64,000 nt of DNA. Source: Bacteroides uniformis (GTDB lineage: Bacteria; Bacillota_I; Bacilli_A; RFN20; CAG-826). Position 1 is the stretch's first letter. Every line of letters begins with the position of its first letter. The notes beneath the pieces are model-generated. The model saw only the letters and a program-made list of their open reading frames with translations. It was not told where the DNA came from and made no database searches. The stretch spans positions 36,430 through 100,429 of the forward strand of contig CAVIBR010000005.1 in the NCBI GenBank assembly GCA_963641445.1, written 5' to 3'. Shown here in pieces: positions 8,727 to 47,303 of this stretch. The translations under genes and the position numbers were made by a program.

Positions 8727-10134
8727 TGAATCCAAAGCAACAGATATCGTCAAAGTTGATGAAAACGAAAATCTTATTCCTAACTCTCCTAAAAACGACG
8801 TAAAGGAAGATGCACCTATCATCCTTTCCGTCCGTCATCTTAAGCAATATTTCAAATTTGGCAAAGGTGAGTTCAAATACAACAAAGCTGTCCATGATGT
8901 CTCTTTCGACATTCATAAAGGAGAAGTCTTAGGCTTAGTTGGCGAATCTGGATGTGGCAAAACCACGACCGGAAGAAGCGTAATCAAGCTCTATGACATT
9001 ACTTCTGGCTCCGTCCATTTCGAAGGAACGAGAATTTCCGCTGGAACAAGATGGAATGAGAAAGAAATCAAATGGAAAAGCATCCGTTATAAGGAACAAA
9101 TCAAAAAACTTCAAGCGGAGAAAAAAGATGCCTTAGAAAGCATCACTCTTCATGATGATATTGATTTAGTTAAGGAAAAGGAAAGAATTTCCAAGGAATT
9201 TGATTCCCAAATCTTTGCTTTGAAAGCTGAATTATCAAAAATCATCAAAGAACAAAGAATGGAAATCCGTCGCGCTCATTATGACAATCGTCATTGCAAT
9301 GCTCCATTTGCTAAAAAAGCGCTTGAAAAAGCTAAAGCAGATCATCTTTCTAGAACTGCTGAACTTAAAGCCAATAAAGCAAAAGGAGGGGCTTTTTGCA
9401 AGGAATATTTGAAATATTTAGAAAGTTTGGTTATCGCTAGACACACCAAAATAACCTCTAAAATGCAAATGATTTTCCAAGATCCGATTGCCTCTCTTGA
9501 CCCAAGAATGACGGTTCGCGATATTATCGCCGAAGGTCTTAGAATTCAAGGCGTTCACGATAAGAAGATAATTGATGAAAAGGTCTCAAATGCTTTAATC
9601 CGTGTTGGCCTTCAACCAGAAATGGCTGAACGTTATCCGCATGAGTTCTCAGGTGGTCAAAGACAACGTATTGGCATTGCTAGAGCCCTTATTATGGAAC
9701 CGGATCTCCTTATTTGCGATGAGCCTGTCAGTGCTCTTGATGTTTCCATTCAAGCTCAGGTTATCAACCTTCTTAATGACCTTAAGAATGAATTGAACCT
9801 CTCTATTCTCTTTGTTGCCCATGACTTATCTGTCGTAAAATATTTCTGCGATAGGATTGCTGTTATGTATTTTGGCAATATTGTTGAAATTGCTTCAAGC
9901 GATGCCTTATTCGCTCATCCTCTCCATCCTTACACCAAATCATTGCTTAGCGCTATTCCTCTCCCAGATCCTCATTACGAGAAGAAGAGAAAGAGAATAA
10001 CCTATAATCCTCAGGAAGAACATTCTTACGGAGAAGAAAAACCAATCCTAAGAGAAGTAGAACCTGGACATATGGTGCTTTGCGATGAAAAAGAATTTGC
10101 TAAATACCAAGAAATAATCAAAGGAAATAATTAA
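8716..10134 (+). CDS. oppF: oligopeptide ABC transporter ATP-binding protein OppF with an internal insertion
   Basis: Walker A GESGCGKT, signature FSGGQRQR, Walker B LICDEPVSALD. An insertion sits between the N- and C-terminal lobes. The start overlaps the oppD end. Confidence 0.8.
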   Translation: MENNESKATDIVKVDENENLIPNSPKNDVKEDAPIILSVRHLKQYFKFGKGEFKYNKAVHDVSFDIHKGEVLGLVGESGCGKTTTGRSVIKLYDITSGSVHFEGTRISAGTRWNEKEIKWKSIRYKEQIKKLQAEKKDALESITLHDDIDLVKEKERISKEFDSQIFALKAELSKIIKEQRMEIRRAHYDNRHCNAPFAKKALEKAKADHLSRTAELKANKAKGGAFCKEYLKYLESLVIARHTKITSKMQMIFQDPIASLDPRMTVRDIIAEGLRIQGVHDKKIIDEKVSNALIRVGLQPEMAERYPHEFSGGQRQRIGIARALIMEPDLLICDEPVSALDVSIQAQVINLLNDLKNELNLSILFVAHDLSVVKYFCDRIAVMYFGNIVEIASSDALFAHPLHPYTKSLLSAIPLPDPHYEKKRKRITYNPQEEHSYGEEKPILREVEPGHMVLCDEKEFAKYQEIIKGNN

Positions 10135-10613
10135 TGAAAAAGATCGATGATGTCACACAAGAAGAAATAGAAGAAAAGAAGATGAAGGAACCATTAACCT
10201 TTAAAGGGATTTTGCTCCGCTCAATTTTCTCTTCAGTGTTTGCTATTCTTCTTTTTGTGGCCGTCCTTCTTATTGAATTAAATGGTTTAAAGCTTTCCTG
10301 GGATGCCTACAAGTTTAGGATTCTTTGCGATTCCTTCTTTATTGCAGGTGTCTTCCCAGTTCTATTTTGGCTTCTTTTATGGGTTGCAGCCAAAGGCGCT
10401 TTCGATATGATTGCCTATTCAATGGGAAAAATGTTATCTTTCATGTTTAGGATTCATCCTGAAAAAAGCAATCTCCCTCCAACATATGCTGATTATGTCG
10501 AGCAAAAAAGAGCGAAAGCTAAACCATTCCATTATGAATTGCTTATTGTAGGAGGAGCCTTCCTTCTTCTTGGAGTAATATTCTTAATTCTAAATATGTG
10601 TTTTGAAGGATAA
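10134..10613 (+). CDS. small membrane protein (DUF3899-like)
   Basis: 159 aa with hydrophobic helices. The start overlaps the oppF stop (ATGA...). The family call is tentative. Confidence 0.4.
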   Translation: MKKIDDVTQEEIEEKKMKEPLTFKGILLRSIFSSVFAILLFVAVLLIELNGLKLSWDAYKFRILCDSFFIAGVFPVLFWLLLWVAAKGAFDMIAYSMGKMLSFMFRIHPEKSNLPPTYADYVEQKRAKAKPFHYELLIVGGAFLLLGVIFLILNMCFEG

Positions 10614-10636
10614 CAATATCCTGAAAAATCCAAAAA

Positions 10637-10664
10637 TAGACGGCCAATCGGCCGTCTTTTCTTC
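10637..10664. terminator. bidirectional intrinsic terminator between convergent genes
   Basis: Perfect hairpin AGACGGCC-aatc-GGCCGTCT flanked by an A-run upstream and a T-run downstream. Confidence 0.6.
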
Positions 10665-10728
10665 GATATATGGATCAAAACCGCATCAATCTCTATTTAA
10701 AGAATATTTTGATTTAAAATATGTTTGC

Positions 10729-11244
10729 TTATTTACGTTTTTTGATTTTATCTAATTTAAATTGAGTGATGGCTTTTGACTCATCAATTCTGTTTTTATG
10801 CATTAAGGATTTTGGAAACAGTATCTTTGATCCGTCAAATCCTATTGTAAATTCTCCTTGTGTGACGGCAAGGACACAGGTTACTTTGCCTTTTGAAAAA
10901 CATTCTTCTAATTTATCGCATCTAACGACTATTTCGCCTATTTGCGAAAGATAGTGCATTTTTTCCTTAACTTTACCTTTTATTTCTTTTGTAGAGTCAC
11001 AGTCAAAATCAATTTCTAAAATCGTTCCATCAAAACATTTATTGTAGAAATCTAAAGCATGCATTTTTGTTTTAACTCCAGTAAGATGAAGAAAATTTTC
11101 AGGATCAAAACTTATTATGTATGATTTTCTTCCGTTAAAACGATCTGATTGGAAGACATATAAGAAATACGTTAGTTTTGCATATTCCTTGGCTGATATT
11201 TTAAGCAAAGAAATTATAGTCTGTTTAAATGATTTGTTTCCCAT
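10729..11244 (-). CDS. hypothetical protein (171 aa, basic C-terminus); no family recognised
   Basis: Clean ORF with an AGGGGAA RBS 4 nt upstream of the ATG. Preceded on the minus strand by a hairpin plus U-tract and a near-consensus promoter. Confidence 0.55.
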   Translation of the reverse strand: MGNKSFKQTIISLLKISAKEYAKLTYFLYVFQSDRFNGRKSYIISFDPENFLHLTGVKTKMHALDFYNKCFDGTILEIDFDCDSTKEIKGKVKEKMHYLSQIGEIVVRCDKLEECFSKGKVTCVLAVTQGEFTIGFDGSKILFPKSLMHKNRIDESKAITQFKLDKIKKRK

Positions 11245-11260
11245 TAGTTCCCCTATAAAT

Positions 11261-11293
11261 AAAAAAAGGGCGGTTTTTTAAGGTATTTCGCCC
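11261..11293 (-). promoter_or_regulatory. attenuator-like hairpin plus U7 tract in the 5' leader of the 171-aa gene
   Basis: On the minus strand, GGGCG-(16 nt)-CGCCC is followed by UUUUUUU. Then come the RBS AGGGGAA and the ATG at 11244. Confidence 0.35.
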
Positions 11294-11338
11294 AGCCTCT
11301 AACACAAGAGAGTTTAATGTCTTCCTGCCGACACCTAT

Positions 11339-11382
11339 AATATAAATTTATTTTGACTGAATGTCAAATTCTTTTTTAAAAT
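11339..11382. promoter_or_regulatory. palindrome TTGACTGAATGTCAA (11353..11367) that supplies a -35 box on both strands (divergent promoter candidates)
   Basis: Minus strand: TTGACA (plus coordinates 11362..11367), 17-nt spacer, TATATT (11339..11344). Plus strand: TTGACT (11353..11358), 18-nt spacer, TAAAAT (11377..11382). Confidence 0.35.
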
Positions 11383-11389
11383 AAACTAG

Positions 11390-11673
11390 ATATTGGTGCA
11401 AATAGGGATGAAGGCATGCGTGGCCAGAAAACTGTTATCTTTCGCGATTATCTCTGCAATCAAATCTAGCCATATATCGCATAAATACGAATAAATCTAG
11501 CATCGCTTGTTTTTGCCCCCCTTCTAGCTAAATACCAGGGAAAGAAGGGCTGGTGCAAAAGATAGCGTTTATTGATGATTTCTCACGTTCATGAAACGTC
11601 AAGTCGCATCAAAGGTGCGAACGTTTTTGAAAAAGCGCTGAGTCAATCATGGTTCTTACCCCCCATTTGCACC
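11390..11673. ncRNA. candidate structured RNA or element of unknown class (GC-enriched, with a terminal 9-bp inverted repeat)
   Basis: A roughly 280-nt segment with GC clearly above the local background. It is closed by GGTGCAAAT (11395..11403) and ATTTGCACC (11665..11673). It contains an internal helix CCCUUCU...AGAAGGG and two C6 runs. It has no ORF. The strand is undetermined. Confidence 0.35.
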
Positions 11674-11714
11674 TACATCTAGAAAATAAATCAGAAAATA
11701 ATGTTTTTTTTGAA

Positions 11715-11972
11715 TTAAAGAAGATTATTCTTCTCTAGATAATGTTTAGCATAAGAACATGATGCAGTAACTTTATAGCCTTTTTCCTTTGCAATCTCTA
11801 GAACCTTTTCAACGAGTTTCTTTGCTATTCCTTGTCCTTGGAGAGAGAGGGAGACAATCGTGCGGGTTATTTCGATAACGTTCTCTTTAACGAGAGGGAA
11901 ATCAATTTCTGCAAGGGCTTCTTCCTTTTCATTAACAAGAAGATATTTATCTTTAAACATTCTTTCTTGCAT
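11715..11972 (-). CDS. small GNAT-family N-acetyltransferase-like protein
   Basis: 85 aa containing the Q/RxxGxG/A-like motif LQGQGIAKKL. The start codon overlaps the stop of the upstream protease gene. Confidence 0.6.
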   Translation of the reverse strand: MQERMFKDKYLLVNEKEEALAEIDFPLVKENVIEITRTIVSLSLQGQGIAKKLVEKVLEIAKEKGYKVTASCSYAKHYLEKNNLL

Positions 11973-13720
11973 TAGTTATGCTCCGTGATCTTGATTGTTG
12001 CTTCGCTATCACTTAATGAGGTAACTTCAACTTTGTAATTAAGCTCATTTCCATTATTGAGCTTATAGGAATCAGCAAAATATTTAGAATATTTCTTTGA
12101 AACTTTTGAATCGATTAAAGAGAATTCATCTCCTTCATGGAATAAATCTTTATCGGTTGAATAAGTTGAAGTTGTGAAGGAAGTTCCTTGAGAAGAAATT
12201 AATGTTAACGCGTCAAATCCTTTTCCTTTGCATACATCAGTATCTCTATCACTTCCATTTGAGCAAGCAACTACAGGATAGTAGTTATTCCCATTGACAT
12301 TTCCTTTAGTTACATCGGAATCACTGAAATAAGAATAACTGGTTCTATTTCCTTTATAGGTAACCTTGGCTAAACGGTTATCAACGTGCCACATTCTAAC
12401 GCCAGACTTGCTATAGCCAGTCTCACCCATGTTAGGTCTTCCTGGGTAAAGCTTTTCGGAATCGAGTTGATTCAAGCCCGTTGGAGTGAATAATTCAATG
12501 ATGACATATTCATCAAAAGCCGTGCCATTCCAACCATTTGGATCAGCAATAACAATGCAATCACCAGTCTCTTCAAAAGAAGAGATTGTTACTTCAGCAG
12601 AACCGTGGACATAATGAGGGGTAACCCAGTTATATTGAAGCTTGTTGAAAGCATCGTGGTCTAAAATGTTATAGGCCATCATAATCTTTCCGCCTGTTAC
12701 TTCCTTTGTTGGATTATCATCGGAATTATAATAGTCATCCGCGCCAAGCATATGGCCAAATTCATGGATGAGGGTATGTGCATCTATACCAGTGTGGTTC
12801 GCCCTTGTTCCTGTGCCTTCATAGAAGAAATCTAGTGATGCCCAGAAATAGGAACATCCAACAGGAGAGTTTTCATTTGCATCAGGGTACTCGCCCGTAT
12901 ATGTATAATTGTCGTCATATGTATCCCAGAATCTATAGGCCCAGTAAGTGCTTGTATTATCGTAGTCTGGAGAATATGTTTCGGCATAAATCAAGATGAC
13001 GGAATCGATATAGCCATCGCCATCTGTATCAAATTTCTTGGTTGAATCGTTGCCGTTTGCCGCCTTATATGCTTTAATTGCTTTTTTCATGGCAACTGCA
13101 GCAGGTTTTCCTGTGCTAGAATCATCTTCGTCTTTTCCGTAGCTGTTATAGAAACTTTTTGCTTTAACGCCCATATCAACTGGATCTGAGTAAGTGAATT
13201 CAAGTTTTAATTTGCCATAGGATGATTTTTCATAGAATGAGCCAAGAGACTCCCAATAACTGGTTTGCTTAGCTGTTCCTCCACAAAGAGTCTTAATTTC
13301 TTGTAATTCGCTATTGGTGAATTTTTTATCGGTGAATGTGATAGGAAGGACTAAAACTGGTTGGGTCCCCGTGCTATAAGTGTTGTAATCGAGATCGTTT
13401 AAAGAAATGTTCTTGTTTGCGTCATAATTGAAATCAACGTTATCATCGGAATAATTAGTATTCCATTCACCATCGCTTCTAGAAGATGATGAAGAAGAAC
13501 TGCTAGAAGATGAACTTTCTGAAGAAGACGTGTTTGTAGATTCGGAAGTTGTCGAATCAGTTGAAACGCTTGAATCAGAAGATGTAGTTGAATCGGTTGA
13601 AGAATTAACATCGCTAGAAGAATCAACGTTACTAGAAGATGAATTAGGCGTAAAAAGGTCGCAAGAAGCAAGAGTGATCAAGCTTCCGAATGATAATGCA
13701 AATAATAATTGTTTTTTCAT
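11972..13720 (-). CDS. secreted zinc metalloprotease lipoprotein (HExxH; M6/InhA-like assignment is tentative) with a Ser/Thr-rich linker
   Basis: Signal peptide plus lipobox LITLASC. A Ser/Thr low-complexity tract of about 75 aa. HEFGHMLGADDYY zinc-binding motif. The likely start is MKKQLL at 13720 rather than the ORF-track 13780. Confidence 0.6.
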   Translation of the reverse strand: MKKQLLFALSFGSLITLASCDLFTPNSSSSNVDSSSDVNSSTDSTTSSDSSVSTDSTTSESTNTSSSESSSSSSSSSSSSRSDGEWNTNYSDDNVDFNYDANKNISLNDLDYNTYSTGTQPVLVLPITFTDKKFTNSELQEIKTLCGGTAKQTSYWESLGSFYEKSSYGKLKLEFTYSDPVDMGVKAKSFYNSYGKDEDDSSTGKPAAVAMKKAIKAYKAANGNDSTKKFDTDGDGYIDSVILIYAETYSPDYDNTSTYWAYRFWDTYDDNYTYTGEYPDANENSPVGCSYFWASLDFFYEGTGTRANHTGIDAHTLIHEFGHMLGADDYYNSDDNPTKEVTGGKIMMAYNILDHDAFNKLQYNWVTPHYVHGSAEVTISSFEETGDCIVIADPNGWNGTAFDEYVIIELFTPTGLNQLDSEKLYPGRPNMGETGYSKSGVRMWHVDNRLAKVTYKGNRTSYSYFSDSDVTKGNVNGNNYYPVVACSNGSDRDTDVCKGKGFDALTLISSQGTSFTTSTYSTDKDLFHEGDEFSLIDSKVSKKYSKYFADSYKLNNGNELNYKVEVTSLSDSEATIKITEHN

Positions 13721-13941
13721 GAAAAGGCTCCTATGTCGAACAGATGTTATTTTAATAAAAATAAAAGGAATAAAAAACAAAAATGATTAATTTTAGTTTC
13801 TTGAATATAACTTGATAATATATTAGGTAACAAATACAATCGATTAAATCTAAATATTAAAGTGATTAAAGTTAAATTTTCCTATTCTTTTTAATGCTAA
13901 AAATGCACCTTTTTGCTAAAATTTCATCTAGAGGAGAATTT

Positions 13942-47212: not shown

Positions 47213-47303
47213 TGGCGGAGGAATAGGGATTCGAACCCTAGCGCAGTGTTACCCGCCTACGAGCTTTCCAAGCCCGCCCCTTCGACCACTTGGGTATTCC
47301 TCC
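47213..47303 (-). tRNA. tRNA-Ser (anticodon GGA), type II with a long variable arm and encoded CCA
   Basis: The reverse complement folds as an acceptor stem GGAGGAA/UUCCUCC, an anticodon stem CGGGC/GCUCG with loop UUGGAAA, and a T arm UAGGG-UUCGAAU-CCCUA, ending in 3' GCCA. Confidence 0.75.

What the first reader, a model, noticed from the sequence alone, without database searches (positions are those of the whole stretch)
11339..11673. A GC-enriched structured element of about 280 nt, bracketed by a 9-bp inverted repeat and lying next to a bidirectional promoter palindrome
The sequence shows that between the GNAT gene end (11715) and the 171-aa ORF start (11244) the GC content rises well above the local AT-rich background. 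There are no ORFs. The segment is closed by GGTGCAAAT (11395..11403) and ATTTGCACC (11665..11673). Internal helices are evident, for example CCCUUCU...AGAAGGG, and there are two C6 runs. Immediately beside it, the palindrome TTGACTGAATGTCAA gives -35 TTGACT with an 18-nt spacer and TAAAAT on the plus strand, reading into the element. It also gives -35 TTGACA with a 17-nt spacer and TATATT on the minus strand, reading toward the 171-aa gene. I could not match the element to RNase P, tmRNA, SRP, 6S, T-box, or any common riboswitch motif that I can recall. It could be a novel sRNA or cis-regulatory RNA. It could instead be a DNA-level element, such as a MITE-like element with 9-bp terminal inverted repeats.
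Basis: seen in the sequence. Interest (0 to 1): 0.6.

Follow-up and report, generated by a model that had tools for sequence, protein, structure and literature searches.

The report
MITE-like insert beside toxin-RNA cassette
The flagged 297-bp segment is most likely a small transposon-like insertion seen in only one gut Bacilli species, not a conserved RNA gene. The promoter next to it, however, drives a conserved repeat-RNA leader in front of a PBECR4 nuclease gene, and that pair looks like an undescribed RNA-antitoxin/toxin module.

Summary
The sequence features are real. The inverted repeat is longer than reported: 22-nt arms, 19/22 complementary, at 11386-11407 and 11661-11682. It is the only repeat of that quality in the 64-kb window. 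The "structure", however, is mostly that repeat. Without the arms the interior folds about as well as shuffled sequence (z -2.0 and -1.2). No Rfam family matches.

The 297-bp element is abutted by a perfect 8-bp direct repeat, AAAATAAA. Alternatively, it sits in a CTAG duplication with an IS5-like end core. It has no ORF and is GC-richer than its surroundings. It occurs, nearly identical, only in assemblies of one species. The sister species has GNAT followed directly by DUF3899, so element, leader and the 171-aa gene together form a ~1.05-kb indel.

Best reading: a MITE-like insertion (confidence ~0.5). Copy number could not be tested.

The minus-strand promoter of the palindrome is supported by comparison; the plus-strand one is not. 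It drives a conserved leader: GTCGG-hairpin units with AGACNTTAAAC loops, with covariation, then a terminator. This leader was found upstream of all 16 independent PBECR4 nuclease homologue loci that had upstream sequence, and nowhere else. It resembles a type III toxin-antitoxin layout and is the more interesting object here.

The parts
11386..11682 (.). 297-bp element bounded by inverted repeats (candidate MITE). GC 42.1%; no ORF longer than 36 aa.
   Evidence: At least 98.3% identical in L014-L019 and present in L034. Absent from L026.
11386..11407 (.). Left terminal inverted repeat, CTAGATATTGGTGCAAATAGGG.
   Evidence: The core GGTGCAAAT resembles the E. coli IS5 end GGAAGGTGCGAATAAG, matching at 10-11 of 16 positions.
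11661..11682 (.). Right terminal inverted repeat, CCCCATTTGCACCTACATCTAG.
   Evidence: 19/22 Watson-Crick with the left arm, or 21/22 counting G.U pairs on the minus strand (read from the sequence).
11378..11385 (.). Left copy of the abutting 8-bp direct repeat AAAATAAA (candidate target-site duplication). In the alternative parse the duplication is CTAG, at 11386-11389 and 11679-11682.
   Evidence: The YTAR duplication motif of IS5 is taken from PMC5009759.
11683..11690 (.). Right copy of the direct repeat AAAATAAA. It is the first unit of a 12-nt tandem repeat (11683-11706) whose copy number varies between strains.
   Evidence: (family D3).
11339..11367 (-). Sigma-70-type promoter TTGACA-17-TATATT. 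The predicted start is about 11332, the first base of the conserved leader.
   Evidence: 11/12. L037 upstream of its leader has TTGACA-17-TATATT and L036 has TTGACA-17-TATAAT.
11353..11382 (+). Promoter-like match TTGACT-18-TAAAAT reading into the element. Unsupported.
   Evidence: 10/12. Such matches are frequent here: 9 found against 5.7 +/- 2.2 expected.
11261..11332 (-). Conserved PBECR4 leader RNA core. It has a GTCGG unit (hairpin with loop AGACATTAAAC), then GGGCG...ACCTTAAAAAAC...CGCCC followed by T7 (terminator-like).
   Evidence: Covariance-model hit at 11266-11332, 49.7 bits, E = 3.8e-10. Alignments. Covariation.
10729..11244 (-). 171-aa PBECR4 (PF18813) nuclease-like protein, the presumed toxin.
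   Evidence: Pfam E = 1.3e-14. AlphaFold pLDDT 92. The best PDB neighbours are RelE toxins, but not significantly so, with E >= 0.16.
10660..11716 (.). Block of about 1.05 kb (element, promoter, leader and PBECR4) that the sister species lacks. There GNAT is followed after 61 nt by DUF3899.
11715..11972 (-). 85-aa GNAT acetyltransferase. It lies upstream of the element on the minus strand and has no terminator of its own before the element.

Best explanation
Window 11386-11682 is a 297-bp non-coding, non-autonomous transposable-element-like insertion (MITE-like). It has 22-nt imperfect terminal inverted repeats and is flanked by a duplicated target. The duplication is either the 8-bp AAAATAAA, or the 4-bp CTAG if the ends are read as IS5-family-like (core GGTGCAAAT). 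It landed in the AT-rich spacer just upstream of the promoter of a PBECR4 toxin cassette, in one lineage of uncultured gut/rumen Bacilli. Its apparent 'RNA structure' is the pairing of its two ends. I infer, without demonstration, that GNAT transcripts reading into it on the minus strand would form the 22-bp terminal stem, which is followed at once by UUUAUUUU. That could act as a terminator or insulator in front of the toxin promoter. The palindrome beside the element belongs to the neighbouring system, not to the element. Its minus-strand half is the -35 box of the promoter that transcribes a conserved leader RNA and then the PBECR4 gene.
For: The terminal inverted repeat is 19/22, unique in the 64 kb, and never reached in 300 shuffles. 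An exact 8-bp direct repeat abuts both ends, with a chance rate of about 9e-4. In the alternative parse, the flanking CTAG fits the IS5 YTAR duplication motif (PMC5009759), and the end core matches the E. coli IS5 ends at 10-11 of 16 positions. There is no ORF longer than 36 aa. GC is 42% against 30-35% for the neighbours. The interior is no more stable than shuffled sequence. There is no Rfam family. The element is found only in assemblies of one species, at 98.3-100% identity. The syntenic site of the sister species (M6-like protein 82% identical) has GNAT, 61 nt, then DUF3899, with no trace of it. Sixteen PBECR4 homologue loci carry the leader but not the element. The element is therefore not part of the conserved PBECR4 unit.
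Against: Only one copy was seen. There is none elsewhere in the 64-kb window or in about 170 kb of related loci. The rest of the genome could not be searched. No autonomous IS with matching ends was found. All six hits of the end-pattern scan of metagenome contigs lie in unrelated DNA; five of them were checked and lie inside coding sequence. The sister species lacks the whole 1.05-kb block, not just the element, so there is no clean empty site. The direct repeat is AT-rich and lies in a 12-nt tandem-repeat tract. The resemblance to IS5 is short.
Confidence: 0.5

Rival explanations
1. It is a lineage-specific small RNA gene. One version is transcribed on the plus strand from TTGACT-18-TAAAAT, starting at about 11390. 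It would end either at the internal terminator-like hairpin 11604-11620 (an RNA of about 240 nt) or beyond the right arm. The other version is on the minus strand, as a structured 3' extension of the GNAT transcript.
For: A promoter-like site lies so that the start falls on the first bases of the left arm. A terminator-like hairpin lies at 11604-11620 on the plus strand. The full-length fold has z = -5 to -6. The element is conserved among strains at a level at or above that of the flanking genes.
Against: There is no Rfam match. The stability disappears once the terminal repeat is removed. The promoter-plus-terminator model excludes the right arm, so it contradicts the 'closed by the inverted repeat' model. 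There is no homologue outside the species, hence no covariation. G.U counts do not favour either strand. Strain-level conservation is uninformative at 0-1.7% divergence.
Confidence: 0.15
2. It is a relic of the vehicle that delivered the PBECR4 cassette, for example the end of an integrative element or phage fragment. On this view it arrived in a single event together with the toxin gene, not as a separate transposition.
For: Element, leader and PBECR4 are absent together from the sister species. PBECR4 cassettes are mobile: 6 of 12 sit directly after different tRNA genes, and one lies among prophage tail genes.
Against: No other PBECR4 locus has anything similar upstream. There is no match in the phage or plasmid collections. 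The direct repeats flank the 297-bp element itself, not the 1.05-kb block.
Confidence: 0.15
3. It is an invertible DNA switch (inverton), whose 22-bp inverted repeats are recombinase sites.
For: Inverted repeats flank about 250 bp between two genes.
Against: The assemblies that span or enter the element show one orientation only. There is no good internal promoter; the best match is 9/12. No recombinase was found among the 16 neighbouring ORFs scanned against Pfam in 8.7-31 kb. Invertons do not explain the abutting direct repeat.
Confidence: 0.05
4. It is a chance inverted repeat in ordinary spacer DNA with no history or function.
For: It is single-copy, species-restricted, and its interior is unremarkable.
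Against: The inverted repeat is unique in the window and beyond 300 shuffles. It coincides with an exact flanking direct repeat and with a GC excursion.
Confidence: 0.1

Closest known systems
Bacterial MITEs, i.e. non-autonomous derivatives of insertion sequences such as IS5-family derivatives, Correia elements and RUP (general comparison from my own knowledge)
   Same: Size under 300 bp, no coding capacity, terminal inverted repeats, a flanking duplication, an intergenic location next to a promoter, and ends that pair into a long RNA stem if transcribed. The CTAG flank fits the IS5 YTAR duplication motif. The end core GGTGCAAAT resembles GGTGCGAAT of E. coli IS5.
   Different: Only one copy was seen and no parental IS was identified. 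The IS5 resemblance covers 10-11 of 16 positions, and the shared GGTGC core starts 6 bases (after a CTAG duplication) or 10 bases (in the 22-nt-arm reading) in from the terminus, against 5 bases in IS5. Multi-copy status is untested.
Type III toxin-antitoxin systems (toxIN, cptIN, tenpIN; PMC3401426, PMC5086642), compared with the adjacent leader-PBECR4 unit, not with the element
   Same: The order is promoter, short tandem RNA units (about 32 nt, against 36-45 nt), intrinsic terminator, then a single nuclease-like toxin gene, with no conserved protein partner.
   Different: The toxin is a PBECR4 (BECR/RelE-like) protein, not a ToxN/AbiQ-fold protein (weak support). The units are degenerate hairpins with a conserved loop, not near-identical repeats. 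The window copy has one clear unit plus a terminator hairpin carrying the loop motif. Toxicity, RNA processing and RNA-protein binding are untested.
AbiF / RCd22 of Clostridioides difficile (bioRxiv 10.1101/2025.04.15.648962)
   Same: A non-coding RNA immediately upstream of an Abi-type toxin gene. It contains two copies of a conserved motif, and it lowers toxin expression and neutralises the toxin by direct binding. This is the closest functional analogy for a leader with two or three motif copies.
   Different: The protein family (Abi_2/AbiD/F) and the RNA motif are both different. Nothing has been shown experimentally for PBECR4.

Membership tests
MITE / non-autonomous IS derivative | Terminal inverted repeats | tested here: met
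   22-nt arms, 19/22. Unique in the window and beyond 300 shuffles.
MITE / non-autonomous IS derivative | Target-site duplication directly flanking the ends | tested here: met
   AAAATAAA, 8/8, abuts both arms, with a chance rate of about 9e-4. The alternative is a CTAG 4-bp duplication. Caveat: the tract is AT-rich and contains 12-nt tandem repeats.
MITE / non-autonomous IS derivative | Small size and no transposase ORF | tested here: met
   297 bp; the longest ORF is 36 aa. The six-frame translation matches no predicted protein.
MITE / non-autonomous IS derivative | Several copies in the genome or in related genomes | tested here: inconclusive
   There is no second copy in the 64-kb window, in about 170 kb of related loci, or in the viral, plasmid and phage collections. 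The metagenome scan gave only chance hits, and it did not even recover the home locus, so the species is not in that collection.
MITE / non-autonomous IS derivative | A parental IS with matching ends | tested here: inconclusive
   None was found. There is only a 10-11 of 16 resemblance to the E. coli IS5 ends.
MITE / non-autonomous IS derivative | Presence/absence polymorphism with an intact empty site | tested here: inconclusive
   The sister species L026 lacks it, but it also lacks the adjacent PBECR4 cassette. Every same-species assembly fetched that covers the site carries it.
Any curated RNA family (Rfam 15) | Covariance-model score at or above the gathering threshold | tested here: not met
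   There is no hit at gathering score. The best sub-threshold hits are 10-18 bits at E >= 0.5.
Structured non-coding RNA (generic) | Folding stability beyond composition, and covariation in homologues | tested here: not met
   The interior has z = -2.0 and -1.2 once the terminal repeat is removed. Covariation cannot be tested, because only sequences at least 98.3% identical exist.
Inverton | Both orientations present in populations, an internal promoter, and a recombinase | tested here: not met
   Only one orientation is seen in the assemblies. The best internal promoter match is 9/12. No recombinase was found among the 16 neighbouring ORFs scanned in 8.7-31 kb.
Type III toxin-antitoxin (adjacent leader-PBECR4 unit) | Tandem-repeat RNA gene immediately upstream of the toxin gene on the same strand | tested here: met
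   L037 has two 32-nt GTCGG-hairpin units, 78% identical to each other, with a compensatory change between them, plus a third small hairpin. The L003-type leaders have three loop-motif hairpins. The window has one unit plus a terminator hairpin carrying the motif.
Type III toxin-antitoxin (adjacent leader-PBECR4 unit) | Intrinsic terminator between the RNA and the toxin ORF | tested here: met
   L037 and L036 have strong hairpin-plus-T-run terminators. The window has GGGCG/CGCCC followed by T7. The terminator is weak (3-4 bp) in the L003-type leaders.
Type III toxin-antitoxin (adjacent leader-PBECR4 unit) | The toxin is an endoribonuclease of the ToxN/AbiQ, CptN or TenpN families | tested here: not met
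   The protein is Pfam PBECR4, with no PADLOC or NCBIfam hit. Its fold neighbours are RelE-type toxins, not significantly. It is therefore not a member of the three known families, though the layout is the same.
Type III toxin-antitoxin (adjacent leader-PBECR4 unit) | The RNA is processed by the toxin, binds it and neutralises it | not testable with these tools
   This needs toxicity-rescue, Northern and co-purification experiments.

The most novel reading that the evidence does not exclude
The promoter inside the flagged interval drives a previously undescribed RNA-protein toxin-antitoxin family. Short tandem hairpin units (GTCGG, a 5-7 bp stem and an AGACNTTAAAC loop) are followed by a terminator and then by a stand-alone PBECR4 (BECR/RelE-like) RNase. 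The RNA would act as a type III-like antitoxin or decoy. The 297-bp element would be a MITE that landed at the upstream edge of this cassette and now insulates the toxin promoter from GNAT read-through. A less likely novel reading is that the 297-bp element is itself a lineage-specific structured RNA.
Probability: 0.35. Interest if true: 0.7.

Novelty: new member of a known kind. Interest (0 to 1): 0.4.

Why it matters
The element itself matters little. It would be one more small mobile insertion in an uncultured gut Bacilli lineage. It is useful mainly as a marker of recent genome flux, and as a warning that a long terminal inverted repeat can mimic a structured RNA in folding statistics.

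The neighbouring unit matters more. Only a handful of RNA-antitoxin (type III or type III-like) families are known. Here a conserved, covarying, repeat-like leader plus terminator precedes every stand-alone PBECR4 gene examined. The protein family has about 1,000 clusters at 50% identity, no assigned partner, and one PBECR4 mention in the searched literature. If the RNA neutralises the nuclease, that would give this family a function and an immunity mechanism. It would also extend type III logic to a BECR-fold toxin.

Tried and rejected
- **Rfam.** I ran the gathering threshold on the whole window and E<=10 on 11200-11800. Only noise came back, and tmRNA and tRNA were excluded.
- **BLASTN of the element.** There was no match against the phage and plasmid collections. 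There was no second copy in the window. BLASTN and nhmmer against all fetched loci gave nothing real.
- **End-pattern scan, CTAGATNTNGGTGCAAATNGGG.** Viral contigs gave 0 hits. Metagenome contigs gave 6 hits, none a copy of the element. L020 and L021 lie in eukaryote-like coding sequence (LDxGAN). L022, L023 and L025 lie in a methyltransferase-like ORF; that reading is my own translation of the flanks printed. L024 matches the end only and was not examined further. The pattern required CTAG, so copies with other YTAR flanks would have been missed.
- **Six-frame pseudo-protein of the element** against 5.8 billion protein clusters, hoping to catch spurious ORF calls in other copies. Nothing was found.
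- **Strand assignment from G.U pairs.** The counts were 7 and 9, which is uninformative.
- **Short matches between the element and the PBECR4 coding region** (12-15 nt). I judged these chance level among many similar matches.
- **An 8-nt match, CGCACCTT, between the element and the leader consensus.** I estimated (not computed) that this is about as likely as not by chance.
- **Synteny test on L003.** Its 583-aa upstream ORF is not homologous to the M6-like protein of the window.
- **Whether L026 lost the block or the window gained it.** There is a weak resemblance between the L026 spacer and the PBECR4 3' end. The question remains unresolved.
- **PDB sequence and fold searches for PBECR4.** No significant hit was found.

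Full report
**1. What is in the sequence**

The interval lies in the 470-nt spacer between the stop of an 85-aa GNAT gene (11715, minus strand) and the start of a 171-aa ORF (11244, minus strand).

Its 22-nt arms are CTAGATATTGGTGCAAATAGGG (11386-11407) and CCCCATTTGCACCTACATCTAG (11661-11682), 19/22 complementary.
- None of 300 dinucleotide shuffles of the spacer reaches 19/22.
- An exhaustive scan of the 64-kb window finds no other inverted repeat of that quality at 50-500 nt spacing.
- The bounded element is 297 bp with 42.1% GC. The window mean is 35.6%, and the neighbouring genes have 30-35%. That places the element at the 92nd percentile of 297-nt windows.
- It has no ORF longer than 36 aa.
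- The C6 runs, the CCCTTCT/AGAAGGG helix and the palindrome TTGACTGAATGTCAA with its two promoter-like readings are all present.

**2. Is it a structured RNA?**

The whole element folds well on both strands, with z = -4.95 (+) and -6.08 (-). That signal comes mostly from the terminal repeat. The 253-nt interior alone gives z = -1.16 (+) and -2.04 (-).

G.U pairs do not discriminate between the strands, with 7 and 9. Rfam 15 gives nothing at gathering score for the window, and only 10-18-bit noise at E<=10 for 11200-11800. ARAGORN finds no tmRNA.

**3. Where else does it occur?**

It has no match in the phage or plasmid collections, and there is no second copy in the window.

Contigs from the same species were reached through exact or near-exact neighbouring proteins. 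These are L014 (GCA_963653265.1), L015-L019 and L034. All carry the element at the same place and in the same orientation, at 98.3-100% identity. That is too close for any covariation test.

The nearest other species is L026 (GCA_963608955.1), whose M6-like protein is 82% identical. It keeps the synteny melibiase - M6-like - GNAT - DUF3899 - Opp, but has only 61 nt between GNAT and DUF3899. Alignment places the difference at window ~10660-11716. The element, the promoter, a leader and the 171-aa gene therefore form a 1.05-kb indel. Two further relatives (71-73% identical) have a different gene after GNAT.

**4. Evidence for a DNA-level insertion**

A perfect 8-bp direct repeat, AAAATAAA, sits immediately outside both arms, at 11378-11385 and 11683-11690. 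Between AT-rich flanks in this window, such an exact match at fixed positions occurs at about 9e-4.

A second parse is equally consistent with an insertion.
- The outermost four bases of both arms are CTAG. If that is the duplication, the ends become ATATTGGTGCAAATAGGG and ATGTAGGTGCAAATGGGG.
- The pre-insertion sequence would then be three 12-nt tandem units: AAAATAAACTAG, AAAATAAATCAG, AAAATAATGTTT. The copy number of these units does vary between strains.
- CTAG fits the YTAR duplication motif of IS5 (PMC5009759).
- The core GGTGCAAAT resembles the E. coli IS5 ends GGAAGGTGCGAA(T/C)AAG, which I read from the K-12 genome. It matches at 10-11 of 16 positions. This is a lead, not a family assignment.

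**5. What could not be shown**

Copy number, the defining property of a MITE, could not be tested.
- The metagenome scan for the end pattern returned six hits, none a copy of the element. Two lie in eukaryote-like coding sequence (LDxGAN). Three lie in a methyltransferase-like ORF. One matches the end only.
- That scan did not recover the home locus either, so the species is not in that collection.
- A six-frame pseudo-protein query against 5.8 billion protein clusters found nothing.
- No transposase or recombinase turned up among the 16 neighbouring ORFs scanned against Pfam.

**6. The neighbour, and what the palindrome belongs to**

The 171-aa protein is a PBECR4 domain (phage Barnase-EndoU-ColicinE5/D-RelE-like nuclease 4), with Pfam E = 1.3e-14. 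Its model is confident (pLDDT 92). The best PDB neighbours are RelE-type toxins, but without significance. There is no PADLOC or NCBIfam hit. The family has 1,078 clusters at 50% identity with E<=1e-3. The 150 best-scoring are mostly short, 165-220 aa.

I fetched 13 loci of homologues that are about 40% identical. They do not contain the 297-bp element. They do share a strongly conserved leader directly upstream of the gene. The order is:
- a promoter;
- a variable hairpin;
- GTCGG plus a 6-bp hairpin with the loop AGACCTTAAAC;
- GTGGTGGCGCACCTTAAAACGC(C) followed by T6-8;
- the start codon.

The 6-bp hairpin covaries. Five of its six pairs show double changes. None of 500 shuffles reaches the observed score, and 92% of cells are paired, against 23-47% when the partners are slid.

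A covariance model of the core hits once per PBECR4 locus, in 14 loci at 74-89 bits. It hits the window at 11266-11332 on the minus strand (49.7 bits, E = 3.8e-10). It hits nothing else in 180 kb.

Two much more distant family members, 210-212 aa long, also have it.
- L036 lies among prophage tail genes. It has one GTCGG unit, a small hairpin and a strong terminator (22.5 bits).
- L037, next to rimP-nusA, has two tandem 32-nt GTCGG-hairpin units. They are 78% identical, with a compensatory A-U to G-C change between them. A third small hairpin and an 11-bp terminator follow (34.3 bits).

The promoters of L037 and L036 are TTGACA-17-TATATT and TTGACA-17-TATAAT. The first is identical to the minus-strand reading of the window's palindrome, and the second differs at one position. 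In the window, the predicted start (~11332) is the G of GTCGG. Rfam has no family for this leader.

The flanking genes differ from locus to locus, so there is no conserved protein partner. Six of twelve loci sit directly after a tRNA gene of varying identity.

**7. Interpretation**

*Shown.* The terminal repeat and the flanking duplication are real and improbable by chance. The element is restricted to one species and is absent from the PBECR4 unit elsewhere. The interior is not notably structured. The minus-strand promoter belongs to a conserved RNA-plus-PBECR4 unit.

*Inferred.*
- The 297-bp element is a MITE-like insertion (confidence about 0.5).
- On the minus strand, its 22-bp end-to-end stem is followed directly by UUUAUUUU. 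Since GNAT lost access to the shared bidirectional terminator when the block was inserted, this stem could terminate GNAT read-through ahead of the toxin promoter.
- The order promoter, tandem hairpin units, terminator, nuclease gene matches type III toxin-antitoxin loci (PMC3401426, PMC5086642). It also matches the AbiF/RCd22 pair, in which an upstream RNA with two motif copies binds and neutralises the toxin.
- The leader-PBECR4 unit is not a member of toxIN, cptIN or tenpIN, because the toxin family differs. It may nevertheless work like them.
- The only paper in the searched library that mentions PBECR4 does so once, in passing. No paper links BECR-fold toxins to RNA antitoxins.

**8. Verdict**

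The bidirectional promoter is supported on one strand only.

The element itself is ordinary, a new member of a known kind. The adjacent leader-PBECR4 unit is the more novel object and deserves its own follow-up.

Noticed in passing
window 11261-11332 (-); L001-L010, L012, L013, L031, L032, L036, L037 immediately upstream of the PBECR4 ORF: A conserved leader RNA precedes every PBECR4 homologue examined. It consists of GTCGG plus a hairpin with an AGACNTTAAAC loop, in 1-2 clear tandem units plus related small hairpins, followed by a terminator-like hairpin and a T-run. The hairpin covaries, and there is no Rfam family for it. This is a candidate type III-like RNA antitoxin or attenuator for a BECR-fold nuclease.
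   Followed up: partly
L001 2749-2839; L003/L004 ~2766-2846; L007/L008 2770-2846; L010 2774-2847: Six of twelve PBECR4 cassettes lie directly downstream of a tRNA gene (Ser-GGA, Arg-TCT, Arg-CCT, Gly-CCC). In the L003-type loci read (L003, L004, L007, L008, L010), the cassette's -35 region lies inside that tRNA's terminator hairpin. This suggests tRNA-proximal insertion of single-gene cassettes.
   Followed up: partly
window 11683-11706 and the equivalent positions in L014, L015, L034: A 12-nt tandem repeat (AAAATAAATCAG / AAAATAATGTTT) next to the element varies in copy number between strains. L014 and L015 lack one unit.
   Followed up: partly
L017 compared with window 10134-13780: Divergence changes sharply across the element. 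The M6-like gene differs by 4.1% and GNAT by 8.9% on one side. The element differs by 1.7%. The leader, PBECR4 and DUF3899 differ by at most 1.0% on the other side. This suggests a recombination breakpoint at or near the element.
   Followed up: no
L012 2720-2822 (+): A COG3943 RNA (RF02941, 91 bits) lies about 500 nt downstream of the PBECR4 gene of that locus.
   Followed up: no
window 10638-10657: A bidirectional terminator hairpin, AGACGGCCAATCGGCCGTCT, is shared by DUF3899 and PBECR4. In the sister species L026 the homologous hairpin serves GNAT and DUF3899.
   Followed up: partly
L003-type loci, e.g. L003 2989-3003: In many PBECR4 homologues the ATG follows the leader's T-run by only 4-8 nt, with no recognisable Shine-Dalgarno sequence. 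The window, L036 and L037 do have one. Translation initiation may be coupled to the leader's 3' end.
   Followed up: no
L022 4024-4048, L023 5185-5209, L025 172-196: A 24/25-nt match to the element's left arm lies inside a methyltransferase-like ORF (peptide ...TLFAPISS...) in three orthologous metagenome contigs. I judged it coincidental, but it is a better match than the search pattern required.
   Followed up: partly
window 47213-47303 (-): tRNA-Ser(GGA), the only Rfam or ARAGORN hit in the window.
   Followed up: no
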